From the IMG/VR virus record IMGVR_UViG_2974784677_000001: 64,000 bases of DNA, one strand, 5' to 3'. The notes under the pieces are model-generated. The model did not search any database. It saw nothing but the letters and a program-made list of their open reading frames with translations, and was not told the DNA's origin. Made by a program: the position numbers and the translations under genes. The stretch's first letter is position 1, and each line of letters starts with the position of its first letter. Origin of the DNA: Thalassavirus gary. Its lineage: Duplodnaviria; Heunggongvirae; Uroviricota; Caudoviricetes; Demerecviridae. Positions 26,836 through 37,871 of the stretch are shown here, in pieces.

Positions 26836-26912
26836 TGCGAGGATGGAGAAATGGCGTCTTGCGAGTTTCATAAGCTCGATAACGTGGGGTTCGAATCCTC
26901 ACCTCGCATCCA
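26836..26912 (+). tRNA. tRNA, anticodon CAT (Met/fMet or Ile2)
   Basis: acceptor TGCGAGG/CCTCGCA, T-loop GGTTCGAATCC, anticodon loop TTCATAA, 3' CCA encoded. Confidence 0.55.
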
Positions 26913-26918
26913 AATTAT

Positions 26919-26995
26919 GCGCGTGTAGCTCAGTTGGTTAGAGCATCTGACTTTTAATCAGGTGGTCGAAGGTTCGAGTCCTTCTACGCGCACCA
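26919..26995 (+). tRNA. tRNA-Lys (TTT)
   Basis: GCGCGTG.../TACGCGC acceptor, D-loop TAGCTCAGTTGGTTAGAGC, loop CTTTTAA, T-loop GGTTCGAGTCC, CCA. Confidence 0.75.
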
Positions 26996-27015
26996 AATTA
27001 CTCTAGGAGTGAAGA

Positions 27016-27186
27016 TATGTATTATCAAGGAGAGCGTATTGTTATAAAGAGATACGACCCTACTCAGGCACAAAAGCGAAAGCTATTTAAGCGTCTAGAG
27101 AAAAAGAAGTTAGTAGAAAAAGTGTCCACAGAGAAAGAATGGTTACGCTACAAAGTTCTACGAAACTTCGATGAAGTAAATTATTA
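27016..27186 (+). CDS. small hypothetical protein (56 aa) between tRNAs
   Basis: RBS AGGAGTGAAGAT then ATG; MYYQGERIVIKRYDPTQAQKRKLFKRLEKKK... Confidence 0.3.
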
Positions 27187-27192
27187 AACAAT

Positions 27193-27269
27193 TCTCGGGC
27201 AGACCATCTGGTTGAGTCACTACCCTTTCAAGGTAGGATTAGCGGGTTCAATTCCCGTCCCGAGAACCA
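27193..27269 (+). tRNA. tRNA-Glu (TTC)
   Basis: acceptor TCTCGGG/CCCGAGA, anticodon stem CTACC/GGTAG, loop CTTTCAA, CCA. Confidence 0.55.
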
Positions 27270-27275
27270 AATTAC

Positions 27276-27352
27276 GGGGAATTAGCTCTAATTGGGAGAG
27301 CACCTGCTTTGCACGCAGGGGGTTATCGGTTCGAATCCGTTATTCTCCACCA
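27276..27352 (+). tRNA. tRNA-Ala (TGC)
   Basis: anticodon arm CCTGC-TTTGCAC-GCAGG, T-loop GGTTCGAATCC, CCA. Confidence 0.7.
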
Positions 27353-27358
27353 AATTCT

Positions 27359-27435
27359 AGAGGCTTGGCTGAGTTGGTTATAGCGACTCCTTCATGCGGA
27401 GTAAGACGTGGGTTCGAGTCCCTCAGCCTCTACCA
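27359..27435 (+). tRNA. tRNA-Met (CAT), second CAT tRNA
   Basis: acceptor AGAGGCT/AGCCTCT, anticodon arm ACTCC-TTCATGC-GGAGT, T-loop GGTTCGAGTCC, CCA. Confidence 0.6.
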
Positions 27436-27443
27436 AGAATATT

Positions 27444-27451
27444 TATAAATA
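27444..27451 (+). promoter_or_regulatory. TATAAATA motif (T4-late-like / extended -10) upstream of the T5orf172-like ORF
   Basis: exact TATAAATA 13 nt before the ATG; no -35 because a tRNA lies upstream. Confidence 0.3.
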
Positions 27452-27463
27452 GGAATAACCTAT

Positions 27464-27997
27464 ATGCCAAAACTAGTTACAAACAATAGAAAACAAAACC
27501 TAGAGAAAATAGAAGAACTATTTCTCGAACGCCTAAAATCAGAAGGTATCACAGAAGCTCTAATGGGTAAGATGGTAAAAACCTTTTACGGTACAGCTCC
27601 TTGGTATTCTGCTAGAAGCAGAAAAGCACAGAAATCTCGTAGACAAATGTTCTACTACATGGGTCACTCTCTGCTACTACTATGCAAAAAACACAGTATA
27701 CCTACTAAAGCTGGTTTTGTGTACGCTGTAACTAATAAAACATTTCCAAACTGTGTAAAGTTGGGACACACAAAAGATTGTGAAGACCGACTAATGCAGT
27801 ACCAAACACATAGCCCACTAAAAGACTATGAAATGACTTGGCAGCAGTTCACCCTAGACTCTTATGCTGCAGAGCAGAAACTTCTTTCATTATTTGAGAG
27901 AATACGCCCTAACGGGGAGTGGGTAAGTCTACAAACTGAGGACACTTTAAAGTTGAAACAGTTACTAAATAAAAGTTTTAAAAGTTTGTCGTATTAA
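27464..27997 (+). CDS. T5orf172 / GIY-YIG-like domain protein embedded in the tRNA cluster
   Basis: GFVYAVTNKTFPNCVKLGHTKDCEDRLMQYQ matches the GIY..YIG..R pattern of GIY-YIG/T5orf172 domains. Confidence 0.5.
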   Translation: MPKLVTNNRKQNLEKIEELFLERLKSEGITEALMGKMVKTFYGTAPWYSARSRKAQKSRRQMFYYMGHSLLLLCKKHSIPTKAGFVYAVTNKTFPNCVKLGHTKDCEDRLMQYQTHSPLKDYEMTWQQFTLDSYAAEQKLLSLFERIRPNGEWVSLQTEDTLKLKQLLNKSFKSLSY

Positions 27998-28000
27998 ACG

Positions 28001-28078
28001 TCTATGGAGGGCGGCGGGATTGTAGACCCCGTGTTGCGAAAGCAGCTCCCTAGGTTCGATTCCTAGATGCGGCACCAT
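28001..28078 (+). tRNA. tRNA-like element (degenerate: T-arm and 3' CCA present, acceptor and anticodon arms do not fold canonically)
   Basis: T-arm CTAGG-TTCGATT-CCTAG then ATGCGGCACCA; central GTTGC-GAAA-GCAGC tetraloop hairpin instead of a 7-nt anticodon loop. Confidence 0.3.
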
Positions 28079-28083
28079 ATTTT

Positions 28084-28159
28084 GGGGGATTAACTCAGTG
28101 GTTAGAGTGGCATCCTGTTAAGTTGCTGGTCGGTGGTTCGAGTCCACCATCCCTCGCCA
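28084..28159 (+). tRNA. tRNA-Asn (GTT)
   Basis: acceptor GGGGGAT/ATCCCTC, D-loop TAACTCAGTGGTTAGAGT, loop CTGTTAA, T-arm GGTGG-TTCGAGT-CCACC, CCA. Confidence 0.6.
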
Positions 28160-28177
28160 TTTTAAGTTAAAAAGTAA

Positions 28178-28206
28178 TTGCTCAACTAGTTACTTTTCTG
28201 TATAAT
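28178..28206 (+). promoter_or_regulatory. early promoter TTGCTC-17-TATAAT with conserved leader
   Basis: leader AGTTACATAAAGTTGAGAAACGGAGATAACAAA. Confidence 0.6.
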
Positions 28207-28239
28207 AGTTACATAAAGTTGAGAAACGGAGATAACAAA

Positions 28240-28434: not shown

Positions 28435-28443
28435 AAGAATTAT

Positions 28444-28521
28444 GCGGCTGTGTGCGAGATGGTTTAGGCAACCTCCCTGTCACGGAGGAGTACGTGGGTT
28501 CAAGTCCCATCGGTCGCGCCA
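28444..28521 (+). tRNA. tRNA-Asp (GTC)
   Basis: acceptor GCGGCTG/CGGTCGC (G-U pairs), anticodon arm CCTCC-CTGTCAC-GGAGG, T-loop GGTTCAAGTCC, CCA. Confidence 0.6.
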
Positions 28522-28530
28522 AATTTAAAG

Positions 28531-28827: not shown

Positions 28828-28905
28828 CGGGGTGTAATGTCAGTCTGGTAGACGGCTCGCTTTGGATGCGAGAGGTCGCTGGTTCGAATCCAGCCTCCCC
28901 GACCA
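28828..28905 (+). tRNA. tRNA-Pro (TGG)
   Basis: anticodon arm CTCGC-TTTGGAT-GCGAG, T-arm GCTGG-TTCGAAT-CCAGC, CCA. Confidence 0.7.
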
Positions 28906-28909
28906 AATG

Positions 28910-29205
28910 AGGAAACAGTATCCTTGCTCAAATGGGTACTCACTGAGGGACGAGCAATCCCAATATGTGCGGGCTGTCTAGCATATGCAGCTTTCGGTTG
29001 AAGTCACATGTTTAGTAATGCAAACCCATTAGCTACGGCTTGGGAGCTTGCCACTTACTCGGTTAAGTCCAAGAACCGCTGTGGAATATGTAAAGTCGTG
29101 ATTCCTTCGGGATAGCGCCTTCGGAAGTTATCTTCTGACTGCTAGCAAGTCCATAGCTATAGACTGTTGCAAAAGGCCGCAACAGGGCAGTACAAAAGAT
29201 AATTT
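28910..29205 (+). ncRNA. candidate small stable RNA(s) inside the tRNA operon (about 300 nt, non-coding)
   Basis: No ORF with RBS; several short GC hairpins with UUCG loops (GATTCCTTCGGGATAGCGCCTTCGGAAGTTATC); flanked directly by tRNAs on the same strand. Confidence 0.35.
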
Positions 29206-29208
29206 AAT

Positions 29209-29293
29209 GCAGAAGTGGTGAAATTGGCAGCCACGCTAGATTTAGGTTCTAGTGCCTTCGGGCGTGAGGGTTCGAGTCCCTCCTTCTGTACCA
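29209..29293 (+). tRNA. tRNA-Leu (TAG), long variable arm
   Basis: acceptor GCAGAAG/CTTCTGT, anticodon arm CTAGA-TTTAGGT-TCTAG, variable arm TGCCTTCGGGCGT, T-loop GGTTCGAGTCC, CCA. Confidence 0.7.
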
Positions 29294-29299
29294 AACAAT

Positions 29300-29396
29300 G
29301 GAAGAGTAAGCCAACAGATTCTGGGTACTGGCAACTGTCTTGAAAACAGTCGATCCTTGAAAGGGTGTGTGGGTTCGAATCCCACTTCTTCCGCCA
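29300..29396 (+). tRNA. tRNA-Ser (TGA), long variable arm, unusually long D region
   Basis: acceptor GGAAGAG/TTCTTCC, anticodon arm ACTGT-CTTGAAA-ACAGT, variable arm CGATCCTTGAAAGGGTGTG, T-loop GGTTCGAATCC, CCA; 97 nt. Confidence 0.5.
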
Positions 29397-29403: not shown

Positions 29404-29490
29404 GCGTACTGAAGACTGAGTGGTCGGTCAGCAGCCTTCCAAGCTGTCGCTCCGAAAGGGGCTGGGGTTCGACTCCCCCTGTACGCTCCA
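29404..29490 (+). tRNA. type-II (long-arm) tRNA, anticodon ambiguous (loop CTTCCAA reads TCC)
   Basis: acceptor GCGTACT/TGTACGC, extra arm GCTCC-GAAA-GGGGC, T-loop GGTTCGACTCC, CCA. Confidence 0.45.
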
Positions 29491-29575: not shown

Positions 29576-29604
29576 TTGCTAAACATCGCATTTTAACGTA
29601 TAAT
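29576..29604 (+). promoter_or_regulatory. early promoter TTGCTA-17-TATAAT with conserved leader
   Basis: leader AGTTACATAAAGTTGAGAAACGGAGATAATAA then ATG 29637. Confidence 0.6.
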
Positions 29605-29636
29605 AGTTACATAAAGTTGAGAAACGGAGATAATAA

Positions 29637-29873: not shown

Positions 29874-29950
29874 GCTTCCTTAGCTCCAATTGGCAGAGCA
29901 TCTGTTTTGTACTCAGAGGGTTGTCCGTTCGAATCGGACAGGGAGCACCA
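29874..29950 (+). tRNA. tRNA-Thr (TGT)
   Basis: acceptor GCTTCCT/AGGGAGC, D-arm GCTC-CAATTGGCA-GAGC, loop TTTGTAC, T-arm GTCCG-TTCGAAT-CGGAC, CCA. Confidence 0.6.
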
Positions 29951-29954
29951 TACA

Positions 29955-30105
29955 ACGTTATATAGTTACTACTCCATAGTGCCGCTCTACGATGCCAGAG
30001 AATAGGACTGTTGTACTGCGATAATGTTAAGCAGTTAAAAGAAGATGCATGAGTGACACCTACTGTGAGTGGTGTGACCTTCCCACTAGGAGAGTTGAAG
30101 TGGAT
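29955..30105 (+). ncRNA. candidate small RNA between tRNA-Thr and tRNA-Gln (about 150 nt, non-coding)
   Basis: no plausible plus-strand ORF; co-transcribed position inside the tRNA operon. Confidence 0.3.
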
Positions 30106-30108
30106 AAT

Positions 30109-30184
30109 AGCGAGGTAGTTTAATTGGTAAAACATCGGACTTTGACTCCGACGTCGGTGGGTTCAAATCCCCCTCTCGCCGCCA
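30109..30184 (+). tRNA. tRNA-Gln (TTG)
   Basis: D-arm GTTT-AATTGGTA-AAAC, anticodon arm TCGGA-CTTTGAC-TCCGA, T-loop GGTTCAAATCC, CCA. Confidence 0.6.
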
Positions 30185-30185
30185 T

Positions 30186-30261
30186 ACTCCCTTAGCTCAG
30201 TGTGTAGAGCACCTCCCTTACAAGGAGGGGGTCGTTGGTTCGAATCCAACAGGGAGTACCA
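30186..30261 (+). tRNA. tRNA-Val (TAC)
   Basis: acceptor ACTCCCT/AGGGAGT, anticodon arm CCTCC-CTTACAA-GGAGG, T-loop GGTTCGAATCC, CCA. Confidence 0.7.
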
Positions 30262-30347
30262 TCTCTAAATATCTTGTCCTAGCAACGCGAATCCAATGGA
30301 TGGGCAGGATGTTTACAAATGGTAACACAATAACAAAGGATGAAGAT

Positions 30348-30752
30348 ATGCAACTTGATGAAATGAAAGCAAAATTGCTAGAAGTACGTAAAGCTCGTAA
30401 CGCAGTAGGTAAAGCAGCAATGCAATCACTTATCGCTGATTTCGACAAACAAGCACGTACTGGTAAAGAAGTTGACGGTATGGCTCTTATCAAGAAATAT
30501 GTAGCTAATGCCAAAGGTAACATGCGTCTAGAAAAAGACCGTGGCAACACCGCAGGTTACGAAGCTTACCGCGCAGAAGTAGATTTCCTAGAAACTCTAT
30601 TGCCAAAGCAGCTAACCGAAGCAGAGCTTCGTGAAGTAATCGAAGGTGGCTGTTTCAATAACATTGGTCAAGTAATGAAGCACTTGCGTGAACATTACCA
30701 AGGTCAATACGATGGTGGTCTAGCGTCTAAAATCGCTCGTGAGGTTGTATGA
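30348..30752 (+). CDS. GatB/YqeY-domain protein (start taken at MQLDEMKAK after RBS AAGGATGAAGAT)
   Basis: C-terminal LTEAELREVIEGG...GQVMKHLREHYQGQYDGGLASKIAREVV resembles the YqeY/GatB C-terminal domain. Confidence 0.5.
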   Translation: MQLDEMKAKLLEVRKARNAVGKAAMQSLIADFDKQARTGKEVDGMALIKKYVANAKGNMRLEKDRGNTAGYEAYRAEVDFLETLLPKQLTEAELREVIEGGCFNNIGQVMKHLREHYQGQYDGGLASKIAREVV

Positions 30753-30979
30753 ACCCAGCAGAAGTAAAAGCTAAACTAGACATTCTTGATGGGGAGCTTA
30801 AAGACCTCACCATCAAAGCAAAAGTCCTAGCAGATAAGAAACGCGAGTGTGAGAACGAGAAAGCTCGCTTGCGAGTAATTCAACAATCTGCTTGCGACCA
30901 TCCAAGAGAAGCACGTAGTTCAGTTATGGTAAATAACGAACCCGAATACTTCTGTACATTGTGTGGAAAAGATTTTTAG
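30749..30979 (+). CDS. small zinc-ribbon protein
   Basis: 76 aa, C-terminal CDHP...CTLCG cysteine cluster; ATGA coupling to upstream gene. Confidence 0.35.
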   Translation: MNPAEVKAKLDILDGELKDLTIKAKVLADKKRECENEKARLRVIQQSACDHPREARSSVMVNNEPEYFCTLCGKDF

Positions 30980-31049
30980 GGCTGAGCCGGTGGCGGCAAA
31001 GAGGATTCCAAACCCTCCTACGTAGGTTCGACTCCTACCAGTTCTGCCA
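30978..31049 (+). tRNA. tRNA-Trp (CCA), compact D-arm
   Basis: acceptor AGGGCTG/CAGTTCT (G-U pairs), anticodon arm GAGGA-TTCCAAA-CCCTC, T-arm GTAGG-TTCGACT-CCTAC, CCA; 72 nt. Confidence 0.45.
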
Positions 31050-31067: not shown

Positions 31068-31096
31068 TTGCAAAACACATATTAACTTGCTATAAT
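31068..31096 (+). promoter_or_regulatory. early promoter TTGCAA-17-TATAAT that reads directly into tRNA genes
   Basis: TTTGCAAAACACATATTAACTTGCTATAAT then leader CGCATAAATTAAGAAATA and tRNA-Ile. Confidence 0.55.
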
Positions 31097-31116
31097 ATAC
31101 GCATAAATTAAGAAAT

Positions 31117-31192
31117 ACTTCCGTAGCTCAGTTGGTAGAGCAAACGACCGATAATCGTTAGGTCACTGGTTCGACTCCAGTCGGGAGTACCA
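31117..31192 (+). tRNA. tRNA-Ile (GAT)
   Basis: acceptor ACTTCCG/CGGGAGT, anticodon arm AACGA-CCGATAA-TCGTT, T-arm CACTGG-TTCGACT-CCAGT, CCA. Confidence 0.7.
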
Positions 31193-31197: not shown

Positions 31198-31290
31198 AGT
31201 TCCTTAGCTCAGTTGGTAGAGCAGCGGGTTTATACTCCGTAGCAACAGATAATTGGCTGGTCATGGGTTCGAGTCCCATAGGAACTACCA
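31198..31290 (+). tRNA. atypical 93-nt tRNA, anticodon loop TTTATAC (TAT), with a 22-nt extra region before the T-arm
   Basis: perfect acceptor AGTTCCT/AGGAACT, canonical D-arm TAGCTCAGTTGGTAGAGC, anticodon stem GCGGG/TCCGT, T-arm ATGGG-TTCGAGT-CCCAT, CCA. Confidence 0.5.
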
Positions 31291-31321: not shown

Positions 31322-32701
31322 ATGTCAACATTTATTATTGCAGGTGTATCAGCAGCAGTATTAGCGGTACTTTTTATCATTCTAGCACTAGTACGAACAG
31401 TAGTTCCTGCCAATGAGGTTCACATCCTCCAGACGGCACGAAAGACAACCTCGTATGGTAAAGGTCAAAAGAACGGTAACGTTTACTTTGATTGGCCAGC
31501 GTCTATCCCGTTACTAGGTAACGTGGTCACGACCTTACCGGTATCAGTGTTCAGTGTAGATCTTCATAGTTACGAAGCCTACGATGCTGACCGACTACCG
31601 TTTGTAGTTGATGTCACCGCGTTCTTCCGAATTGAAGACTCAAATACCGCAGCACAGCGTGTAAGTGACTTCCACGAGTTGCGAGAGCAATTAGAAGCAA
31701 TCTTACAAGGTGCTACCCGTACAATCCTAGCTGGTTCTACTATCGAAGAAATCATGCAAGGTCGTTCAGAATACGGTGATAAGTTTACAGCAGAAGTAAA
31801 TGGTCAACTAGCAGAATGGGGTGTACAAACAGTTAAGAATATCGAGCTAATGGATATTCGTGACGCAAATAGCTCTAACGTTATCAGCAACATCATGGCT
31901 AAGAAAAAGTCTGAAATCGAGAAAGACTCTCGTATCGAAGTAGCTAATAACAAACGTGCAGCTGAAATTGCAGAAACAGAAAACTCGCGCGAAGCAGAAC
32001 TAGCTGCTCAAGAGGCACAACAACAAGTAGGTATTCGTACTGCTGAGAAAAACCGTGAAATCGGTCTAGCCAAAGAAAAAGCAGAACAAGCGGTTCAGGA
32101 ATCAGCAAAAATCACTGCTGAACGTGAAATGGATGTTAAACGTGTTAACGATACACAAGCAGCTAACATCGCTAAACAGGTTACACAAACCCGTGCAGAA
32201 GAAAACAAAATTGAAGTAGAGCTAAACGCCCAAGCAGCTAAAGCTAAAATTATTCTAGAAGCTGACGCTAAGTTAGCACAAGATACCAAACTTGCAGAAG
32301 GTACTAAGATTAAAGCAGACGCAGACGCAGAACAGATTCGCCTAACTGGTGAAGCTAAAGCAGAAGCAGCTAAGAAACTAGAACTTGCAAGCGTTGAGCC
32401 TCAAATCGTCCTTGCTCAAGAAATCGGTGAGAACGAAGGCTACCAAAGATACCTAATCGAAATTCGTAAGGTAGAAGCAGATGAAAATGTTGGTCTAGAA
32501 CAGGCTAAAGCACTACAGACTGCTGAAATGAAAGTCATCGCTAACTCTGGTGACGTAAATGGTGGAGTTAACTCCCTTATGAACTTGCTAACACCTGATG
32601 GTGGTACTAAAATGGCAGGTTCTCTAGAAGCTCTAGCGCAATCTGATGTTGGTCAGGCGTTCTTAACCAAGATTGGCTTCGACATGGTTAACAAACAATA
32701 A
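31322..32701 (+). CDS. SPFH/band-7 (flotillin/YqiK-like) membrane protein
   Basis: N-terminal TM helix IIAGVSAAVLAVLFIILALV, SPFH-like core, long Ala/Glu/Lys-rich coiled coil. Confidence 0.55.
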   Translation: MSTFIIAGVSAAVLAVLFIILALVRTVVPANEVHILQTARKTTSYGKGQKNGNVYFDWPASIPLLGNVVTTLPVSVFSVDLHSYEAYDADRLPFVVDVTAFFRIEDSNTAAQRVSDFHELREQLEAILQGATRTILAGSTIEEIMQGRSEYGDKFTAEVNGQLAEWGVQTVKNIELMDIRDANSSNVISNIMAKKKSEIEKDSRIEVANNKRAAEIAETENSREAELAAQEAQQQVGIRTAEKNREIGLAKEKAEQAVQESAKITAEREMDVKRVNDTQAANIAKQVTQTRAEENKIEVELNAQAAKAKIILEADAKLAQDTKLAEGTKIKADADAEQIRLTGEAKAEAAKKLELASVEPQIVLAQEIGENEGYQRYLIEIRKVEADENVGLEQAKALQTAEMKVIANSGDVNGGVNSLMNLLTPDGGTKMAGSLEALAQSDVGQAFLTKIGFDMVNKQ

Positions 32702-32997: not shown

Positions 32998-33073
32998 GCG
33001 GGAATAGCTCAGTAGGTAGAGCACTTGGTTGAAGACCTAGGTGTCGCTGGTTCAACTCCAGCTTCCCGCACCA
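32998..33073 (+). tRNA. tRNA-Phe (GAA)
   Basis: acceptor GCGGGAA/TTCCCGC, D-loop TAGCTCAGTAGGTAGAGC, loop TTGAAGA, T-loop GGTTCAACTCC, CCA. Confidence 0.7.
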
Positions 33074-33082: not shown

Positions 33083-33158
33083 GCAGCTATAGTTCAACTG
33101 GATAGAGCACCACCCTACGAAGGTGATAATCTAGGTTCGAGTCCTAGTAGCTGCGCCA
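33083..33158 (+). tRNA. tRNA-Arg (ACG)
   Basis: acceptor GCAGCTA/TAGCTGC, loop CTACGAA, T-arm CTAGG-TTCGAGT-CCTAG, CCA. Confidence 0.65.
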
Positions 33159-33471: not shown

Positions 33472-33561
33472 GGAGAGATGCCTGAATTGGTTAAGGGAGC
33501 GGGTTGCTAACCCGTCGGCTGCTTCGGTGGTCTCTGGGTTCGAGTCCCAGTCTCTCCGCCA
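33472..33561 (+). tRNA. tRNA-Ser (GCT), long variable arm
   Basis: acceptor GGAGAGA/TCTCTCC, anticodon arm GCGGG-TTGCTAA-CCCGT, variable arm CGGCTGCTTCGGTGGTC, T-loop GGTTCGAGTCC, CCA. Confidence 0.7.
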
Positions 33562-33918: not shown

Positions 33919-34464
33919 ATGAAGAATCAAATTTACCTAGCAGGCGATATGCTAAACCGTGGTGCTCAACTTCAACGAGCAGAAGAAAAACGTGATTTGC
34001 TTAATCTAGGGTACGAATTATACGTGCCACAGGATAATAAAGATATAAATGATAAAGAAAATCTTAACTCGAATGATGGTCTAGCAGAGAAAATTGTTCG
34101 TGCAGATACAGATGGTATCGTGAATTCTGATATCGTGGTCATGGAAGCTCGTGAAGCAGCTCTTGGTACTTGTATTGAACTTGGTCAGATTAAAGGCATG
34201 AAAGACGTCGCTAAAACAGTCTTGTCTATGCTAGAGTCTGGTTGCTCTCTTAAAGAAGTAATTCATAATATGGAGCAAATTCGTGATAAGCTTGTTCTAG
34301 TTCACAACTCAGATATTCGTCGTGCAGGTAATCCTACCGAAACAGGCGATCGTCGCAGCTATGCCCCTCACCAGTACATGTACGGTGTAGTGCTTGATGT
34401 AACCAACGGTCATGGTTACTACGATTGGAACGAAGTTACATACATCCTAGACCGAGGTGTATAA
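33919..34464 (+). CDS. nucleoside 2-deoxyribosyltransferase-like (NDT/Rcl fold) protein; start taken at MKNQIYLAGD after RBS GGAG
   Basis: IYLAGDM motif (NDT family YLAGP-like) and downstream acidic GTCIELG; track ORF starts further upstream at 33742. Confidence 0.45.
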   Translation: MKNQIYLAGDMLNRGAQLQRAEEKRDLLNLGYELYVPQDNKDINDKENLNSNDGLAEKIVRADTDGIVNSDIVVMEAREAALGTCIELGQIKGMKDVAKTVLSMLESGCSLKEVIHNMEQIRDKLVLVHNSDIRRAGNPTETGDRRSYAPHQYMYGVVLDVTNGHGYYDWNEVTYILDRGV

Positions 34465-35090
34465 TGTTAGAAAAGATTTGGTCAGTTATTGCGGTGCTCC
34501 TAGTAATCGGAGCATCAATCATCTCAGGGGCAGATTTGTTTGTGTCTGCCTTGAGTCTAGTAGGTATTCTGTTTGTACTAGGTGTCGCCTTTAAGCGACC
34601 AGAGTCACAGTTACTGGGTGCTGTATTCTGCGGGTTCTTGGCGTTTGCCTCGATGGGCGCAGGCTTTTATGCGAATGCAGTCGTTAATGGATTGATACTA
34701 ATCCCCGCCTCTATATATGGATATTTTCATTGGAAGCGAAGAAAAGGTTTTCAATTAGAGCAAAGTATGTCTAGTGGTGGACTCACTAATATGATTGTTT
34801 CATTAGTGGCCGTCACAGCATTAGTGTTCTTCTTTGGAACTATGGGAGCAGGTGGGGCTATGCCTCTACTAGATGCCCTAACTGGAGTCATGCCAGTATT
34901 TGCAACATTCTTAATGATTGGTGCATATCGAGAGCAATGGCTTCTATGGATACCCTTTAATGCAATACAAGCCTTTATGTGGTTTACCGCCGCGTCTTTG
35001 CAGCCTGCGGTACTGGCGGTGTTTGTGTTGAAACTGGTATTCTTGATTAATTCATTAATCGGATTTTATACTTGGAGAAAAGAGGCGTAA
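34464..35090 (+). CDS. pnuC: PnuC-like nicotinamide riboside/NMN transporter (multi-TM)
   Basis: 6-7 predicted TM helices, IYGYFHWKRRKG resembles the PnuC GW..W motif; TAATG coupling to upstream NDT-like gene. Confidence 0.5.
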   Translation: MLEKIWSVIAVLLVIGASIISGADLFVSALSLVGILFVLGVAFKRPESQLLGAVFCGFLAFASMGAGFYANAVVNGLILIPASIYGYFHWKRRKGFQLEQSMSSGGLTNMIVSLVAVTALVFFFGTMGAGGAMPLLDALTGVMPVFATFLMIGAYREQWLLWIPFNAIQAFMWFTAASLQPAVLAVFVLKLVFLINSLIGFYTWRKEA

Positions 35091-35111: not shown

Positions 35112-35140
35112 TTTGCTAACTTCTCTTATTTAACGTATAA
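35112..35140 (+). promoter_or_regulatory. early promoter TTGCTA-17-TATAAT
   Basis: promoter family; leader AGTTATATAAATTGATGAGAGAGG. Confidence 0.6.
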
Positions 35141-35172
35141 TAGTTATATAAATTGATGAGAGAGGTTATCAA

Positions 35173-35433: not shown

Positions 35434-35573
35434 TTTATCCCTAAAACAAGCAGAAGCTATGTTGGCTTTCCTTAATGACATTGAAGAAGAGAAAGGCAAT
35501 CTACTCCCACAAGAAGAAGAATTACAAGCCTATCTTGACGCAGCAATTGATGCTGAAAAAGATAAAAACTGAA

Positions 35574-35602
35574 TTGCTAACTAGCCTTAAAATCTGTATA
35601 AT
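35574..35602 (+). promoter_or_regulatory. early promoter TTGCTA-17-TATAAT with conserved leader
   Basis: AGTTACATAAAGTTGAGAAACGGAGATTGTTAATG. Confidence 0.6.
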
Positions 35603-35628
35603 AGTTACATAAAGTTGAGAAACGGAGA

Positions 35629-36123: not shown

Positions 36124-36334
36124 AGTAGTTATCAGTGCAACAACCCTACAGAATCTTATCAATCTAGCCTATCTTGCGAAAGAATGGGCGGATAATGACG
36201 AAGATGGGCTAATTGCAGAAACAATTGCTTACGGTGAAGCAGCATTATCAGAAGCTTCGCCTTATGTCTTCACTAAAGAAGAATACGAGCAGCTAGAAAA
36301 ACATTTTGACTTGGAGGCATTCTTCAGTGAGTAG
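36116..36334 (+). CDS. hypothetical protein (start at MSKVVISAT)
   Basis: GTGATGAGT coupling with upstream gene; the track ORF extends upstream in another frame. Confidence 0.35.
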   Translation: MSKVVISATTLQNLINLAYLAKEWADNDEDGLIAETIAYGEAALSEASPYVFTKEEYEQLEKHFDLEAFFSE

Positions 36335-36479
36335 AAAAGAATTAGACTACTACTGGGAACAGATTCGTACCCTAGCAAATAAAATCGACTCTGGGGCTAT
36401 CCGACATGGTACTCAAGCAGAGCGTAACGATGCTCAAGAAATTAGACAGCTAGCAGAGGCTAGACTGAAAAGAAAATAA

Positions 36480-36556
36480 GGGTTGTATGCTGAAGTGGAC
36501 GAAGCGCGGGATTGCAAACCCCGTCTTACTCGGTTCGAGTCCGAGACTTCCCTCCA
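36480..36556 (+). tRNA. tRNA-Cys (GCA)
   Basis: anticodon arm CGGGA-TTGCAAA-CCCCG, T-arm CTCGG-TTCGAGT-CCGAG, CCA; acceptor stem has two U-U mismatches. Confidence 0.45.
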
Positions 36557-36574
36557 AATTAATTAAAAATGGAA

Positions 36575-36603
36575 TTGCTAAATAACTAAAAATTCCGTAT
36601 AAT
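36575..36603 (+). promoter_or_regulatory. early promoter TTGCTA-17-TATAAT with conserved leader, driving a non-coding transcript and tRNA-His
   Basis: TTGCTAAATAACTAAAAATTCCGTATAATAGTTACATAAAGTTGAGAGAG. Confidence 0.6.
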
Positions 36604-36604
36604 A

Positions 36605-36868
36605 GTTACATAAAGTTGAGAGAGTCAAGTAAGCGCGGTAACTGGCGTAATGTAGTCACTACTTCGTGGATTGTAATTCTTTCTCGACTTGTCACATTAA
36701 AACATTCTTGAATTGTCTGGTGGAGTAAGAGCCGTCAGAAAAAGACAGAAAGCCGTGCTACTCACACTAGACTCTTACAGTGTTGGGTACGAAAGCCTGA
36801 ATAAGAATACGGTCAGGTCATGCCGTGGGGATAGCTACCTCTAGAGCTAACTGTGTAGAGTGTTTTAA
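36605..36868 (+). ncRNA. candidate structured ncRNA (about 260 nt) between promoter and tRNA-His
   Basis: no ORF; long-range complementarity TGTCACATTAAAACATTC (about 36686) with GAGTGTTTTAATGTGACG (about 36856) closes a roughly 170-nt domain; internal hairpins. Confidence 0.4.
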
Positions 36869-36869
36869 T

Positions 36870-36946
36870 GTGACGTTGGCTGAAGTGGGAATGGCTCTGG
36901 GTTGTGATTCCAGAATATGCGGGTTCGATCCCCGTACGTCACCCCA
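36870..36946 (+). tRNA. tRNA-His (GTG)
   Basis: acceptor GTGACGT/ACGTCAC, anticodon arm CTGGG-TTGTGAT-TCCAG, T-loop GGTTCGATCCC, CCA. Confidence 0.65.
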
Positions 36947-36965
36947 AATTTAATAGGAGATAACA

Positions 36966-37160
36966 ATGATTAAGAAAATCATTCGTCGTAATAAACAAAA
37001 ATTTACTGCAATCTTCAAAGAAGGTCGCACAATGTTCCCTCGTTACGAGTTTAATAACGTAACTTATCTAGGCAAAGCAAACGGTATTAACCTGTTCCGT
37101 GCTGATGAAGGCTTTGCTTACAAAGGTATGACTTTCTGTAACGAAGCGACTTGGTCTTAA
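36966..37160 (+). CDS. hypothetical protein
   Basis: 64-aa ORF with RBS AGGAGATAACAATG. Confidence 0.4.
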   Translation: MIKKIIRRNKQKFTAIFKEGRTMFPRYEFNNVTYLGKANGINLFRADEGFAYKGMTFCNEATWS

Positions 37161-37170
37161 ACAAATTAAT

Positions 37171-37255
37171 GCTCCGTGTGCCGACATCGCTCTTCTAAAG
37201 CGATACGTAAAACGTTGGGTGGACGTGAGAGGTTCGACTCCTCCACGGAGTGCCA
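37171..37255 (+). tRNA. tRNA-Arg (TCT) with extended variable region
   Basis: acceptor GCTCCGT/ACGGAGT, anticodon arm TCGCT-CTTCTAA-AGCGA, T-loop GGTTCGACTCC, CCA; 85 nt. Confidence 0.5.
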
Positions 37256-37438
37256 TTTTTATCGGAGAAGATTATGTTCACACTAGGCGTAATATGGCTA
37301 ATATTTCAAGGGATAACTTGTATTGCACTAGCCGATTGTAAAAGTGAAGACATGTGCAATAAAATCATGTGGATGCCAACTGTACTACGTTGGATTATCT
37401 TTACAGTCCCGTCATTAATTGTATGGGCTACTAAATAG
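37250..37438 (+). CDS. small membrane protein
   Basis: 62 aa, two hydrophobic helices. Confidence 0.35.
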   Translation: MPFLSEKIMFTLGVIWLIFQGITCIALADCKSEDMCNKIMWMPTVLRWIIFTVPSLIVWATK

Positions 37439-37447
37439 GGAGAAGAT

Positions 37448-37783
37448 ATGTCTTTCAAACGACAAGTAAAGTATGGTGTCTTTAGTCACAAAGATGCTGC
37501 TGTGCATTTAAGTAATGAAGAATACTTGCAGTTAGTATCCCTGATGTCAAAGATAGAAGAAAAACGCATGCAAAGTGGCAAAGCTCCAATTTCTGCGGTT
37601 GTTATTGACCAGAATACTTTAGGCAAAGAAGCATATGAAGCGGGCTTTAAAATAGTTGAAACAGCAGTAACTGCAAAACTTCAACGTGCTTGCACCCATC
37701 CAGAGTGGAAAACAGACTATGCTATAATGGGTGGATTCGATGTCCATACTTGCACTAAGTGCGGATACACAGAAACAAATTAA
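37448..37783 (+). CDS. hypothetical protein with C-terminal zinc ribbon
   Basis: CTHPEW...CTKCGYTETN. Confidence 0.4.
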   Translation: MSFKRQVKYGVFSHKDAAVHLSNEEYLQLVSLMSKIEEKRMQSGKAPISAVVIDQNTLGKEAYEAGFKIVETAVTAKLQRACTHPEWKTDYAIMGGFDVHTCTKCGYTETN

Positions 37784-37784
37784 T

Positions 37785-37871
37785 GCTGGCGTGGTGGAAT
37801 TGGTAATACACGTGGGACTTAAAATCCCATGCCCTAGAGGATTGAGAGTTCGAGTCTCTCCGCCAGTACCA
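37785..37871 (+). tRNA. tRNA-Leu (TAA), long variable arm
   Basis: acceptor GCTGGCG/CGCCAGT, anticodon arm TGGGA-CTTAAAA-TCCCA, T-loop GAGTTCGAGTCTC, CCA. Confidence 0.7.

What the first reader, a model, noticed from the sequence alone, without database searches (positions are those of the whole stretch)
26836..37871. About 25-gene tRNA cluster with atypical members, interleaved small ORFs and internal promoters
tRNAs for Lys, Glu, Ala, Met (two CAT), Asn, Asp, Pro, Leu (TAG, TAA), Ser (TGA, GCT), Thr, Gln, Val, Trp, Ile (GAT), Phe, Arg (ACG, TCT), Cys and His were folded by eye. All encode their 3' CCA. Several are unusual. A 93-nt tRNA at 31198-31290 has a perfect acceptor and D-arm, an anticodon loop TTTATAC (TAT, which would read AUA) and a 22-nt extra segment. 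A long-arm tRNA at 29404-29490 has a loop that reads TCC. tRNA-Arg(TCT) and tRNA-Ser(TGA) carry extended D or variable regions. A tRNA-like element at 28001-28078 keeps its T-arm and CCA but replaces the anticodon arm with a GAAA-tetraloop hairpin. No Gly(TCC) or Tyr tRNA with a canonical fold was found. The cluster is broken by at least six promoters of the conserved family, so the tRNAs lie in several transcription units.
Basis: seen in the sequence. Interest (0 to 1): 0.55.

Follow-up and report, generated by a model that had tools for sequence, protein, structure and literature searches.

The report
Phage tRNA cluster with odd-shaped tRNAs
This is the known tRNA gene cluster of the T5-like Vibrio phage Gary, with 25 tRNAs covering all 20 amino acids, and several members have non-standard shapes, including an arginine tRNA with no D-arm, held together by a pseudoknot, for which I found no published description.

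Summary
The window is 100% identical to Vibrio phage Gary (Demerecviridae, Thalassavirus), where GenBank annotates 23 tRNAs in this stretch. I confirm 25 plus-strand tRNA genes. All encode CCA, their discriminator bases fit their anticodons, all 20 amino acids are covered, and six promoters of the phage's TTGC-N19-TATAATA family lie inside the cluster.

- The "tRNA-like element" is a wrongly bounded class II tRNA-Tyr(GUA), 27988-28077. Its GAAA hairpin is the variable arm.
- The TCC tRNA carries the full GlyRS identity set.
- The "Arg(TCT)", 37171-37255, is unannotated. It has no extended D region and no D-arm at all.

The Arg gene belongs to a family found in more than 300 phage records, in IMG/VR contigs and in bacterial tRNA arrays. 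Anticodons are UCU or CCU. It has an 8-bp acceptor stem, a 4-bp T stem and a 6-bp anticodon stem. A D-region strand pairs with the variable-arm loop, forming a pseudoknot (98.7% of cells paired; 18 of 26 pairs compensatory).

The 93-nt tRNA-Ile(UAU) belongs to a widespread phage class. Its variable-arm loop is a conserved YAGAUWA, which resembles the tRNA-Ile(GAU) anticodon loop.

The cluster is known. Some member architectures appear undescribed.

The parts
26836..26912 (+). tRNA(CAT)-1, atypical: U1-A72, U73, one extra nucleotide between acceptor and D stem
   Evidence: ARAGORN. Rfam tRNA 34.0 bits. Annotated tRNA-Met. CCA.
26919..26995 (+). tRNA-Lys(TTT)
   Evidence: (74.8 bits).
27193..27269 (+). 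tRNA-Glu(TTC)
27276..27352 (+). tRNA-Ala(TGC)
27359..27435 (+). tRNA(CAT)-2, with G37 and C38 in the anticodon loop
   Evidence: (61.1 bits).
27988..28077 (+). tRNA-Tyr(GTA), 90 nt, class II, not annotated in the Gary record. Anticodon 28022-28024. A31.C39 mismatch, G37, and a 3-4-nt connector before the D stem. The variable arm carries a GAAA loop. The first 10 nt overlap the end of ORF gp103.
   Evidence: ARAGORN -ps90. No Rfam hit at E<=1. The homologue is annotated tRNA-Tyr in Chester, Dax, Athena, ABurr and X1. Compensatory changes in acceptor pair 7-66, the anticodon stem and the variable-arm stem.
28084..28159 (+). tRNA-Asn(GTT)
28178..28207 (+). Promoter of the TTGC-N19-TATAATA family
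28444..28521 (+). tRNA-Asp(GTC)
28828..28905 (+). tRNA-Pro(TGG)
28906..29208 (+). Conserved, unannotated non-coding element of about 300 nt between tRNA-Pro and tRNA-Leu; candidate structured RNA
   Evidence: Conserved in 63 Vibrio phage records and never annotated. 19 of 75 predicted pairs are compensatory in 5 sequences. No Rfam family. Folding z-score only -1.5.
29209..29293 (+). tRNA-Leu(TAG)
29300..29396 (+). tRNA-Ser(TGA), 97 nt, with a 17-nt D-loop. Anticodon 29341-29343.
   Evidence: Rfam tRNA 40.1 bits. Annotated tRNA-Ser. ARAGORN finds it only at -ps90 and misreads the anticodon. Homologues in many phages.
29404..29490 (+). tRNA-Gly(TCC), 87 nt. Anticodon 29438-29440. 6-bp D stem with a 4-nt loop, 16-nt variable arm with a GAAA loop. 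Acceptor/T branch is either 8/4 or 7/5 with two mismatches. G1-C72, C2-G71, G3-C70, U73.
   Evidence: tRNA-Sec model 42.7 bits, below the cut-off of 47. Compensatory changes at anticodon-stem pairs 27-43 and 28-42 and at the first T-stem pair, compared with Ceto, pVp-1 and VF16. Present in 52 records.
29576..29605 (+). Promoter of the family
29874..29950 (+). tRNA-Thr(TGT)
30109..30184 (+). tRNA-Gln(TTG)
30186..30261 (+). tRNA-Val(TAC)
30978..31049 (+). tRNA-Trp(CCA), 72 nt. Reduced D-arm (3-bp stem, 4-nt loop) and an A31.C39 mismatch.
   Evidence: Annotated. ARAGORN finds it only at -ps90. Rfam tRNA misses it. Compensatory changes in the D stem and anticodon stem compared with pVp-1 and VF16.
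31068..31097 (+). Promoter of the family
31117..31192 (+). tRNA-Ile(GAT); its anticodon loop has C33
   Evidence: (68 bits).
31198..31290 (+). tRNA-Ile(TAT), 93 nt. Anticodon 31231-31233. 22-nt variable region 31241-31262 with a hairpin whose 7-nt loop is CAGATAA (31246-31252).
   Evidence: Rfam tRNA 62.7 bits. Acceptor and T stems are fully compensatory among Gary, Hades, henriette and V6Aob while the core is invariant. Family-wide covariation of the variable-arm stem and a conserved YAGAUWA loop.
32998..33073 (+). tRNA-Phe(GAA)
33083..33158 (+). tRNA-Arg(ACG)
33472..33561 (+). tRNA-Ser(GCT)
35113..35142 (+). Promoter of the family
35574..35603 (+). Promoter of the family
36480..36556 (+). 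tRNA-Cys(GCA)
   Evidence: Not above the Rfam gathering score.
36575..36604 (+). Promoter of the family, followed by about 260 nt with no ORF and then tRNA-His
36870..36946 (+). tRNA-His(GTG)
37171..37255 (+). Non-canonical tRNA-Arg(TCT), 85 nt, not annotated.
- Acceptor stem 37171-78 with 37244-51 (8 bp).
- D-region strand 37181-85, paired with 37214-18 in the variable-arm loop.
- Anticodon stem 37186-91 with 37199-204 (6 bp).
- Anticodon loop 37192-98; TCT at 37194-96.
- Variable-arm stem 37205-08 with 37223-26.
- T stem 37229-32 with 37240-43 (4 bp).
- G73, then CCA at 37253-55.
   Evidence: ARAGORN -ps90, anticodon misread as aaa. tRNA-Sec model 29.5 bits with the D-arm deleted in the alignment. 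Family alignment A1 and pair counts. Own covariance model 89.9 bits. Sits in the same slot as the canonical 77-nt tRNA-Arg(TCT) of sibling phages.
37785..37871 (+). tRNA-Leu(TAA)

Best explanation
The region is the tRNA gene cluster of the T5-like Vibrio phage Gary. It holds 25 co-oriented, functional tRNA genes that cover all 20 amino acids.

How it works:
- It is transcribed in several units from the phage's own sigma-70-type promoters, together with small ORFs (shown: the promoter family and gene layout; inferred: the transcription units).
- The tRNAs are cut out by host RNase P and 3' processing enzymes. They need no CCA addition because CCA is encoded (inferred).
- They are charged by host synthetases. 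They supply decoders, 13 of the 25 with U34, for A-ending codons that the phage uses heavily (CTA, ATA, AGA, GGA). They may also keep translation running if host tRNAs are depleted (inferred).

Six members are real tRNAs with non-standard bodies:
- Tyr(GUA), Trp(CCA) and Ser(UGA) are moderately odd.
- Gly(UCC) has a tRNA-Sec-like D-arm, a long variable arm and a possible 8/4 acceptor/T branch.
- Ile(UAU) is an otherwise canonical tRNA with an inserted variable-arm hairpin whose loop is conserved.
- Arg(UCU) belongs to a family with an 8/4 acceptor/T branch, a 6-bp anticodon stem and no D-arm hairpin. The strand at the D position pairs with the loop of the variable arm, which gives a pseudoknotted core and an 11-bp stack continuous with the anticodon stem. 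This should keep an L-like shape (the pairings are shown by covariation; the three-dimensional shape and the charging by ArgRS are inferred).
For: Identity and annotation: 100% match to Vibrio phage Gary, where 23 tRNAs are annotated.

Gene set: 25 tRNAs, all on the + strand, all with CCA and with discriminator bases that fit their anticodons. Promoter family: 26 matches against 2.5 expected. Phage codon use per 1000 codons: CTA 35.4, ATA 11.7, AGA 9.9, GGA 10.0.

Tyr, Trp, Gly and Ile(UAU): compensatory changes in relatives.

Arg family:
- 31 distinct members with 8-bp acceptor stems.
- 98.7% of cells paired against 38-45% when the partners are slid; 18 of 26 pairs have double changes.
- The eighth acceptor pair is GC 25, AU 3, UA 2.
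- The D-strand/variable-loop helix and the variable-arm stem both covary, and they cross.
- In the anticodon-independent scan every family member carried UCU or CCU; one contig carries both, 150 nt apart.
- Members always lie inside tRNA clusters or arrays.
- In Gary it occupies the slot where sibling phages have a canonical tRNA-Arg(UCU).

Ile(UAU): 93% of cells paired, all five helices covary, and the variable-arm stem has 12 different compensatory closing sequences. It replaces a CAT tRNA that looks like tRNA-Ile2 (my recollection of the E. coli sequence, not tested here) in the same slot of Ceto, pVp-1 and VF16. It is the only tRNA, or nearly so, of the unrelated phages henriette 12B8 and V6Aob.

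Gly(UCC): among 32 distinct long-variable-arm phage tRNA(UCC) sequences, 28 start with GCG and 29 have U73.

An 8/4 branch, 12 bp in total, works in E. coli translation for allo-tRNAs (PMC5389517).
Against: - There are no expression, processing, aminoacylation or decoding data for any of these genes.
- Standard tools reject or misread four members.
- The Arg family lacks the D-loop that carries A20, a major ArgRS identity element in E. coli (established knowledge). Its discriminator base varies among G, U and A.
- The Arg family's T stem and anticodon loop were fixed by my search patterns. The acceptor helix was partly selected by a filter of at least 7 of 8 pairs. The evidence for those parts is therefore weaker than the numbers suggest.
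- For Gly(UCC), the choice between 8/4 and 7/5 cannot be settled, because the relevant positions never vary.
- Host codon usage was not available, so codon compensation is argued from the phage side only.
Confidence: 0.85

Rival explanations
1. The atypical members are decaying tRNA pseudogenes or leftovers of recombination in a fast-changing cluster, and only the roughly 20 canonical genes work.
For: - Default ARAGORN and Rfam miss Tyr, Trp and Arg(UCU), and score Gly below the cut-off.
- Cluster content changes between close relatives. Slots are swapped and 150-300-nt insertions come and go.
- The VF16 record flags its tRNA-Cys as a possible pseudogene.
Against: - Each atypical gene keeps perfect or compensated helices, a 7-nt anticodon loop with U33, an identity-consistent discriminator base and CCA.
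- Compensatory substitutions are seen in every one of them except Ser.
- The Arg and Ile types are conserved across unrelated phage lineages and in bacterial tRNA arrays.
- Without them the phage set would lack Tyr, Gly and Trp and the AGA and AUA decoders.
Confidence: 0.04
2. The long-variable-arm tRNAs with Ile(UAU) and Gly(UCC) anticodons are charged with a different amino acid (Leu or Ser) and recode AUA or GGA. Nematode nev-tRNAs are charged this way in vitro, and some allo-tRNAs may work this way.
For: - Class II tRNAs with Gly and Ile(UAU) anticodons exist in nematodes and are charged with Leu in vitro (PMC3333845, PMC4300185).
- Allo-tRNAs with UAU anticodons are common (PMC5389517).
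- The Ile(UAU) class has A73, which is also the LeuRS discriminator (established knowledge).
- The Gly tRNA scores best on the tRNA-Sec model.
Against: - Gly(UCC) has U73 and G1-C72, C2-G71, G3-C70, which is the E. coli GlyRS identity set (established knowledge), not the G73 used by SerRS. The same signature holds in 28-29 of 32 long-variable-arm phage tRNA(UCC) sequences.
- It is the phage's only Gly tRNA.
- Ile(UAU) takes the slot of a tRNA-Ile2-like CAT gene and has a canonical class I D-arm.
- Its variable arm has only 3-5 bp.
- Phage ORFs use ATA and GGA at about 10-12 per 1000 codons, like ordinary sense codons.
Confidence: 0.05
3. Some atypical members are not translation adaptors. They could be decoys or insensitive substitutes aimed at host tRNA-cleaving defence nucleases, aminoacyl donors for non-ribosomal reactions, or processing punctuation for the polycistronic transcripts.
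For: - Phage tRNAs are proposed to evade anticodon nucleases through changes in the anticodon loop (PMC10264068). This cluster has several such deviations: G37 in Tyr and in CAT-2, C33 in Ile(GAU), and A31.C39 in Tyr and Trp.
- A changed tRNA body could escape nucleases that read the D-arm or the elbow (inference).
Against: - Evading nucleases is compatible with the main explanation rather than a rival to it, because an insensitive tRNA must still decode.
- The T-loops are standard (TTCGAnT) and the acceptor/T branch has 12 bp, which suits EF-Tu.
- In the anticodon-independent scan the Arg family carried only the two AGR anticodons. A pure decoy would not be expected to keep the anticodon that tightly.
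- No Mom-like gene was seen among the 10 cluster ORFs scanned.
Confidence: 0.06

Closest known systems
tRNA gene clusters of T5-like phages (Demerecviridae); specifically the annotated cluster of Vibrio phage Gary and other Thalassavirus, Cetovirus and Vipunavirus genomes
   Same: It is the identical sequence. The layout is the same: more than 20 co-oriented tRNAs interleaved with small ORFs, including a T5orf172/MUG113 protein.
   Different: Nothing at the level of the cluster. The deposited Gary annotation lacks tRNA-Tyr and the non-canonical tRNA-Arg(UCU).
(8/4) tRNAs and allo-tRNAs (Mukai et al. 2017, PMC5389517)
   Same: A 12-bp acceptor/T branch split 8/4, a long variable arm and a long anticodon stem. 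That paper already reported (8/4) tRNA-Ser and tRNA-His in phages. Gary's Gly(UCC) also has the 6-bp D stem with a tetraloop.
   Different: The Arg(YCU) family has no D-arm hairpin; its D strand pairs with the variable-arm loop. The anticodons here match the likely identity (Arg, Gly) rather than Ser-type identity paired with a foreign anticodon. Gly has U73, not G73. For Gly the 8/4 split is unproven.
Bacterial tRNA-Sec (Rfam RF01852)
   Same: It is the best-scoring Rfam model for both Gly(UCC) and Arg(UCU). Shared features are the 8-bp acceptor stem, the 6-bp anticodon stem (Arg), the 6-bp D stem (Gly) and the long variable arm.
   Different: Scores of 42.7 and 29.5 bits fall below the cut-off of 47. 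The anticodons are UCC and UCU, not UCA. The branch has 12 bp rather than 13. The discriminator is not the Ser/Sec type in Gly.
Nematode nev-tRNAs (PMC3333845, PMC4300185)
   Same: They are class II-like tRNAs carrying Gly and Ile(UAU) anticodons.
   Different: They are eukaryotic, restricted to nematodes and Leu-accepting in vitro. The phage tRNAs have Ile-type or Gly-type acceptor features and a short variable arm with a conserved YAGAUWA loop (Ile).
tRNA-Ile(UAU) of Mycoplasma mobile and other TilS-less bacteria (PMC3575796)
   Same: An unmodified-type UAU anticodon is used to read AUA without TilS.
   Different: Those tRNAs are canonical class I and depend on a changed IleRS, with Arg in place of Trp905. 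E. coli-type IleRS charges UAU poorly. The phage class works in hosts that have their own IleRS, and it carries an extra hairpin that displays GAU.
D-arm-lacking mitochondrial tRNAs, for example metazoan mt-tRNA-Ser (review PMC7609411)
   Same: No D-arm hairpin.
   Different: Mitochondrial forms are truncated and flexible, with a simple connector. The phage Arg family is longer than normal (85-88 nt) and replaces the D-arm with a covarying long-range helix plus a variable-arm stem.

Membership tests
T5-like phage tRNA cluster (Demerecviridae, Thalassavirus gary) | Sequence identity to a classified, annotated genome | tested here: met
   100% identity over 11,036 bp to MW344054/NC_055913. Taxonomy as given in the record.
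T5-like phage tRNA cluster (Demerecviridae, Thalassavirus gary) | Many co-oriented tRNA genes interleaved with small ORFs | tested here: met
   25 tRNAs and 21 annotated ORFs, all on the + strand. T5orf172/MUG113 domain in gp103.
Canonical tRNA (Rfam RF00005) | Score at or above the gathering cut-off of 29 bits | tested here: met
   Met for 20 of 25 genes, including Ile(TAT) at 62.7 bits and Ser(TGA) at 40.1 bits. Not met for Tyr, Gly(TCC), Trp, Cys and Arg(TCT).
Canonical tRNA (cloverleaf) | A D-arm hairpin between the acceptor and anticodon stems | tested here: not met
   This row concerns Arg(TCT) at 37171-37255. Only 7 nt separate the acceptor stem from the anticodon stem. The tRNA-Sec model deletes its D-arm in the alignment. 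The strand pairs with the variable-arm loop instead. The other 24 genes have a D-arm.
(8/4) tRNA / allo-tRNA (PMC5389517) | A 12-bp acceptor/T branch made of an 8-bp acceptor stem and a 4-bp T stem | tested here: met
   Arg family: the eighth pair covaries (GC 25, AU 3, UA 2), while the 7/5 alternative would give A.C or A.A there. For Gly(TCC) this is inconclusive: G8-C and U7.U never vary.
(8/4) tRNA / allo-tRNA (PMC5389517) | A tRNA-Sec-like D-arm (long stem, tetraloop) and a long variable arm | tested here: inconclusive
   Gly(TCC) has a 6-bp D stem, a GYGG loop and a 16-nt variable arm, judged by pairing only, with no covariation in the D stem. The Arg family has a long variable arm but no D-arm.
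(8/4) tRNA / allo-tRNA (PMC5389517) | Serine identity (G73 and recognition of the variable arm), often with a non-serine anticodon | tested here: not met
   Gly(TCC) has U73 and G1C2G3. The actual charging is not testable with these tools.
tRNA-Sec (Rfam RF01852) | Score at or above 47 bits, and a UCA anticodon | tested here: not met
   42.7 bits (Gly TCC) and 29.5 bits (Arg TCT).
Class II tRNA-Tyr (bacterial) | GUA anticodon, A73 and a long variable arm | tested here: met
   27988-28077. The stems covary. Deviations: G37, A31.C39 and a longer connector.
nev-tRNA-like mischarged class II tRNAs | Charged with Leu despite a Gly or Ile anticodon | not testable with these tools
   Sequence features argue against this, but only an aminoacylation assay can decide.
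tRNA-Arg (bacterial identity set) | C35, with U36 or G36; A20 in the D-loop; A73 or G73 | tested here: inconclusive
   In the anticodon-independent scan every family member had C35 and U36; the first scan fixed the anticodon loop by its pattern. Gary has G73, but the family varies among G, U and A. There is no D-loop, so an A20 equivalent cannot be assigned.

The most novel reading that the evidence does not exclude
Two members represent natural tRNA architectures that have not been described.

(1) A tRNA-Arg(UCU/CCU) that works on bacterial ribosomes with no D-arm. Its core is a pseudoknot between the D-position strand and the variable-arm loop. It is spread through phage tRNA clusters and bacterial tRNA arrays, is missed by tRNA finders, and has been left out of more than 300 deposited phage annotations.

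(2) A tRNA-Ile(UAU) whose inserted variable-arm loop, YAGAUWA, copies the GAU anticodon loop of tRNA-Ile1. This would present the IleRS identity nucleotides (G34, A35, U36, A37 or U37, A38) that the real UAU loop (U34, C38) lacks, so that a host IleRS which charges UAU poorly can still charge an AUA decoder that does not depend on TilS.
Probability: 0.3. Interest if true: 0.85.

Novelty: new variant of a known kind. Interest (0 to 1): 0.62.

Why it matters
The cluster itself is ordinary and already deposited. The members matter for three reasons.

[quoted passage not shown] The Arg(YCU) family, if it is functional, is a widespread natural exception. It would show that the D-arm hairpin can be replaced by a long-range helix while the anticodon and acceptor ends are kept.

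Second, it exposes an annotation gap. The gene is unannotated in Gary and in roughly 330 matching phage records. Phage tRNA repertoires, and arguments about codon use built on them, may therefore be systematically incomplete for AGA and AGG.

Third, the tRNA-Ile(UAU) class with a conserved GAU-bearing extra hairpin gives a directly testable idea for how phages obtain AUA decoding without TilS in hosts whose IleRS disfavours UAU. Together with the long-variable-arm tRNA-Gly(UCC) class, it offers natural scaffolds for tRNA engineering.

Tried and rejected
- Literature. Nine full-text searches found no description of a D-armless, pseudoknotted tRNA-Arg, of a phage tRNA-Ile(UAU) with a conserved variable-arm loop, or of class II-like phage tRNA-Gly. 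The library lacks most subscription journals, so prior description cannot be excluded.
- Rfam in permissive mode on the cluster and on single elements gave no family other than tRNA or tRNA-Sec. Hits to plastid UTR, snoRNA and miRNA families are tRNA look-alikes on the opposite strand or chance matches.
- 8/4 against 7/5 for Gly(UCC). There are only three distinct sequences and the decisive positions never vary. The IMG/VR scan found no further relatives of this subtype.
- A base-pairing interaction between the Ile variable-arm loop and the anticodon loop (AUAA with UUAU) fits only the CAGAUAA variants and not CAGAUUA, so I rejected it.
- I first considered that the 22-nt insert in Ile(UAU) is an intron. 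It is too short for a group I intron, it lies in the variable region rather than the anticodon loop, and it forms a covarying hairpin.
- Folding energy alone for the three ORF-free gaps gave weak z-scores of -1.5, -2.5 and -0.9. Only 28906-29208 gained support, from comparative data.
- The idea that the pseudoknot fold is exclusive to Arg was weakened. My covariance model found the same layout with a Trp(CCA) anticodon in a 543-kb IMG/VR contig, and related D-armless Arg(ACG/TCG) genes in D126, valsw3 and that contig.

Full report
**Source of the window.**
The stretch 26836-37871 is 100% identical to Vibrio phage Gary (MW344054 / NC_055913, record positions 73148-84183). Gary is a T5-like phage of Vibrio harveyi (Demerecviridae; Ermolyevavirinae; Thalassavirus). 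About 50 close relatives have been deposited. Window coordinate equals record coordinate minus 46312. The records annotate 23 tRNAs and 21 ORFs here, all on the + strand. At the level of "a phage tRNA cluster", the finding is already known and annotated.

**Checking the observation.**
ARAGORN at default settings finds 21 tRNAs. Rfam's tRNA model finds 20 above its gathering score. Lowering ARAGORN's threshold to 90% adds exactly four more. All four are on the + strand and all sit flush in intergenic slots:
- Tyr(gta) at 27988-28077;
- Ser at 29300-29396;
- Trp(cca) at 30978-31049;
- an 85-nt gene at 37171-37255.

At 80% and 70%, false calls appear on both strands, so 90% is a natural break. 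All 25 genes end in CCA, and their discriminator bases fit their anticodons: U73 for Gly and Cys, C73 for His, G73 for Ser, Trp, Asn, Asp and Gln, and A73 for Tyr, Leu and Ile. The set covers all 20 amino acids, and 13 of the 25 anticodons start with U.

The promoter claim holds. TTGC-N19-TATAATA occurs 26 times in the window against 2.5 expected, and none of 100 shuffles reached 26. Six copies lie inside the cluster, two just upstream and one just downstream, all on the + strand.

The interleaved ORFs include a T5orf172/MUG113 protein, a YqeY-like protein, an SPFH/Band-7 protein, a nucleoside 2-deoxyribosyltransferase and a PnuC transporter.

**The "tRNA-like element" is tRNA-Tyr.**
With its true 5' end at 27988, the element folds as a 90-nt class II tRNA with anticodon GTA (28022-28024) and A73. 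The same gene is annotated tRNA-Tyr in Chester, Dax, Athena, ABurr and X1. Relatives show several compensatory changes:
- PG07 changes acceptor pair 7-66 from U-A to A-U, and the variable-arm stem from UGC/GCA to CAC/GUG;
- valsw3 and SJ1 change an anticodon-stem pair from G-C to A-U;
- one D-stem pair is U.G in some relatives and U-A in others.

The tRNA is still unusual. It has a 3-4-nt connector before the D stem, an A31.C39 mismatch and G37. Rfam gives no hit for it. Ceto, pVp-1, VF16 and Hades carry a different, canonical class II tRNA-Tyr in the same slot.

**Gly(UCC), 29404-29490.**
Its best Rfam hit is tRNA-Sec at 42.7 bits, below that family's cut-off of 47. It has these features:
- a 6-bp D stem (GACUGA/UCGGUC) with a 4-nt loop;
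- a 16-nt variable arm closed by GAAA;
- either an 8/4 acceptor/T branch (U7.U mismatch plus G8-C) or a 7/5 branch with two mismatches.

The versions in Ceto, pVp-1 and VF16 are 84-85% identical. They show double compensatory changes at two anticodon-stem pairs and at the first T-stem pair, and they have a different variable arm. The positions that would distinguish 8/4 from 7/5 never vary, so that point stays open.

It carries G1-C72, C2-G71, G3-C70, U73 and the anticodon UCC. These are the E. coli GlyRS identity elements (established knowledge), not the G73 expected for SerRS. An IMG/VR scan shows that tRNA(UCC) with a long variable region is common in phages. Of 32 distinct sequences, 28 begin with GCG and 29 have U73. 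I therefore read it as the phage's glycine tRNA.

**Ile(UAU), 31198-31290.**
Rfam tRNA scores it at 62.7 bits. Its body is a canonical class I tRNA with a 22-nt variable region. Four variants are known: Gary, Hades, and the unrelated phages henriette 12B8 and V6Aob, where it is the only tRNA or one of two. They differ by fully compensated changes in the acceptor and T stems, while everything from the D-arm to the end of the variable region is identical. In Ceto, pVp-1 and VF16 the same slot holds a 76-nt CAT tRNA that closely resembles E. coli tRNA-Ile2 (my recollection of that sequence).

An IMG/VR scan anchored only on the anticodon loop and the T-arm returned 50 distinct long-variable-region tRNA-like sequences. 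About 45 of them have a variable-arm hairpin whose 7-nt loop reads YAGAUWA. AGAU is invariant in all 39 loops that my parser resolved, and the closing three pairs occur in 12 different complementary versions. On a 34-sequence alignment, 93% of cells pair against 39-47% when the partners are slid. All five helices carry compensatory changes, including the variable-arm stem.

With the same anchors, the canonical-spacing form gave 19 distinct tRNA-like sequences in a complete scan.

The loop matches the tRNA-Ile(GAU) anticodon loop CUGAUAA (the E. coli sequence, from memory) except at position 33. The real anticodon loop, UUUAUAC, lacks G34 and A38. E. coli IleRS charges UAU poorly (PMC3575796). 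One reading is therefore that the extra loop supplies IleRS identity. This is a hypothesis only. The geometry is not obviously favourable, because a 3-5-bp variable arm does not reach where the anticodon sits.

**Arg(UCU), 37171-37255, is the most unusual member.**
It is unannotated. ARAGORN reads the wrong loop, and Rfam gives only tRNA-Sec at 29.5 bits with the D-arm deleted in the alignment. Among the Thalassavirus genomes in the collection only Gary and GRLPWR have it. The four sibling genomes I examined (Ceto, pVp-1, VF16 and Hades) have a canonical 77-nt tRNA-Arg(TCT) between the same flanking ORFs.

Homologues at 73-88% identity occur in about 330 phage records, comprising 294 Vibrio phages and 32 Acinetobacter T4-like phages. 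In the records listed they are never annotated as a tRNA, and in every locus I fetched they lie inside a tRNA cluster. IMG/VR pattern scans gave 31 distinct members. A scan that did not fix the anticodon added members with CCU. One 176-kb contig carries a UCU copy and a CCU copy 150 nt apart.

On a 30-sequence alignment the following structure is supported:
- an 8-bp acceptor stem, whose eighth pair is GC 25, AU 3, UA 2;
- a 2-nt connector;
- a 5-nt strand (CCNNC) that pairs with GNNGG, which lies after the anticodon arm;
- a 6-bp anticodon stem, compensated at five of its six pairs;
- the loop CUYCUAA;
- a 3-4-bp stem that encloses an A-rich stretch, the GNNGG and an RNGG motif;
- GA;
- a 4-bp T stem.

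Overall, 98.7% of cells pair against 38-45% when the partners are slid, and 18 of 26 pairs have changes on both sides. The CCNNC/GNNGG helix crosses the short stem, so the core is a pseudoknot.

Three caveats apply. The T-arm and anticodon loop were fixed by the search patterns. The acceptor helix was partly selected by my filter of at least 7 of 8 pairs. The two core helices and the anticodon stem were not selected in any way.

Because the CCNNC strand runs directly into the 5' strand of the anticodon stem, the two helices can stack into an 11-bp arm, about the length of the normal D-plus-anticodon stack. The acceptor/T branch keeps 12 bp, and the conserved GG could play the role of G18 and G19. 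This three-dimensional picture is inference.

A genome scan found 11 members in bacterial genomes or MAGs: seven Verrucomicrobiota, two Pyrinomonadaceae, Vibrio injensis and Spirabiliibacterium. Eight of the 11 lie within tRNA gene clusters of 4 to 30 genes; at the other three loci ARAGORN found no neighbouring tRNA.

A covariance model built from the alignment scores Gary's copy at 89.9 bits. It finds new UCU members (L123, L239). It also finds the same layout with a Trp(CCA) anticodon in a 543-kb contig, and related D-armless Arg(ACG/TCG) genes in D126, valsw3 and that contig. The fold is therefore not strictly confined to AGR decoders.

**Ser(UGA) and Trp(CCA).**
Ser(UGA) passes Rfam at 40.1 bits. 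Its only oddity is a 17-nt D-loop, and homologues are widespread. Trp(CCA) has a 3-bp D stem with a 4-nt loop and an A31.C39 mismatch. pVp-1 and VF16 carry compensatory changes in its D stem and anticodon stem.

**How the cluster most likely works.**
Transcription starts at the phage promoters and runs through tRNAs and small ORFs. Host RNase P and 3' trimming release the tRNAs. CCA is encoded in every gene, and the spacers are short and AT-rich. Host synthetases charge them. Phage ORFs in the window use CTA at 35.4, ATA at 11.7, AGA at 9.9 and GGA at 10.0 per 1000 codons, and the cluster supplies decoders for each. Host usage was not available, so codon compensation is argued from one side only.

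A second benefit, not exclusive of the first, is to keep translation going when host tRNAs are cleaved by defence nucleases (PMC10264068). The anticodon-loop deviations (G37 in Tyr and CAT-2, C33 in Ile(GAU), A31.C39 in Tyr and Trp) and the altered bodies are compatible with that idea but do not prove it.

**Comparison with what is known.**
(8/4) tRNA-Ser and tRNA-His in phages and allo-tRNAs have been described (PMC5389517). tRNA-Sec, nev-tRNAs, D-armless mitochondrial tRNAs and the Mycoplasma tRNA-Ile(UAU) are the other near neighbours.

None of them has the D-strand/variable-loop pseudoknot or the GAU-bearing variable loop. A 2020 review of non-canonical tRNAs does not mention phages or pseudoknots. 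A 2024 paper states that all known bacterial tRNAs are canonical cloverleaves. I found no paper that describes these classes, but the library is incomplete.

**Verdict.**
The cluster is already known. Several member architectures are new variants of the tRNA kind, and one of them (Arg-YCU) is a well-supported, widespread and unannotated fold.

Noticed in passing
window 28906-29208: An ORF-free element of about 300 nt between tRNA-Pro and tRNA-Leu is conserved in 63 Vibrio phage records from several T5-like genera, including Thalassavirus, Cetovirus, Vipunavirus, Jesfedecavirus and Pogseptimavirus (down to about 70% identity), and is never annotated. RNAalifold on 5 sequences gives 75 pairs, 19 of them with compensatory changes. 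There is no Rfam match. It is absent from Hades and VF16, where Pro and Leu are adjacent. It may be a structured RNA co-transcribed with the tRNAs.
   Followed up: partly
window 36575-36869: A promoter of the phage family is followed by about 260 nt with no ORF that runs straight into tRNA-His. The region is conserved at 96-100% in 27 records, all from phages of V. harveyi or V. campbellii. Its folding z-score is -2.5. In Ceto, Cys and His are adjacent instead.
   Followed up: partly
window 29951-30108: A 158-nt ORF-free spacer lies between tRNA-Thr and tRNA-Gln. Hades lacks it, with Thr and Gln 6 nt apart. There is no folding signal (z-score -0.9).
   Followed up: partly
window 31117-31192, 27359-27435, 27988-28077, 30978-31049: There are several anticodon-loop and stem deviations. 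tRNA-Ile(GAU) has C33 instead of the near-universal U33. tRNA(CAT)-2 and tRNA-Tyr have G37. Tyr and Trp have an A31.C39 mismatch, and the 31-39 pair is also non-standard in 10 of 34 aligned phage tRNA-Ile(UAU) sequences.
   Followed up: partly
window 26836-26912: The first tRNA(CAT) scores only 34 bits. It has U1-A72, U73, an A11-U24-type D-stem pair and an extra nucleotide before the D stem. It has no run of three G-C pairs in the anticodon stem. Its identity (initiator-like, elongator Met, or other) is unresolved. It is conserved as the first gene of the cluster in the five relatives whose full clusters were examined, and a CAT tRNA also comes first in valsw3 and D126.
   Followed up: no
L095 6235-6323 (-); L004 11187-11269; L003 13055-13137: The D-armless, pseudoknot-type layout also occurs with a Trp(CCA) anticodon in a 543-kb IMG/VR contig. 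Related 83-84-nt Arg(ACG/TCG/TCT) genes with a shared ...GAUGYUGAAAA / AGCUGAAAAUGG... segment occur in that contig and in Vibrio phages D126 and valsw3. ARAGORN misreads them (Arg ccg, or a 96-nt Arg acg).
   Followed up: partly
L315, L320, L325, L339, L359, L362, L363, L364: In bacterial MAGs (Verrucomicrobiota, Pyrinomonadaceae) the non-canonical tRNA-Arg(UCU) sits in tRNA gene clusters of 4 to 30 genes. ARAGORN finds several other Arg anticodons in these clusters but no canonical Arg(TCT).
   Followed up: partly
window 27464-27997 and 27988-28077: ORF gp103 (T5orf172/MUG113 domain, a family typical of T5 tRNA regions) overlaps the first 10 nt of tRNA-Tyr. Its stop codon lies inside the connector between the acceptor and the D stem.
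   Followed up: no
window 30309-30752, 31322-32701, 33919-35090: Larger genes are embedded in the tRNA cluster: a YqeY-like protein (RefSeq calls it 'tRNA amidotransferase'), a 459-aa SPFH/Band-7 protein, and a pair consisting of a nucleoside 2-deoxyribosyltransferase and a PnuC NMN transporter.
   Followed up: partly
related GenBank records: Annotation is inconsistent between sibling genomes. Bennett labels the identical 87-nt Gly(TCC) gene as tRNA-Thr. Chester annotates tRNA-Tyr as a shifted 72-nt feature. Most Thalassavirus records, including Gary, omit tRNA-Tyr. In several Vibrio phage records the non-canonical Arg gene lies under short 'hypothetical protein' CDS calls.
   Followed up: no
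window 1-64000: The promoter family TTGC-N19-TATAATA has 26 copies. The four copies before position 12000 are on the minus strand and all later ones are on the plus strand, which suggests divergent transcription from a switch point between about 11.3 kb and 15.8 kb.
   Followed up: no
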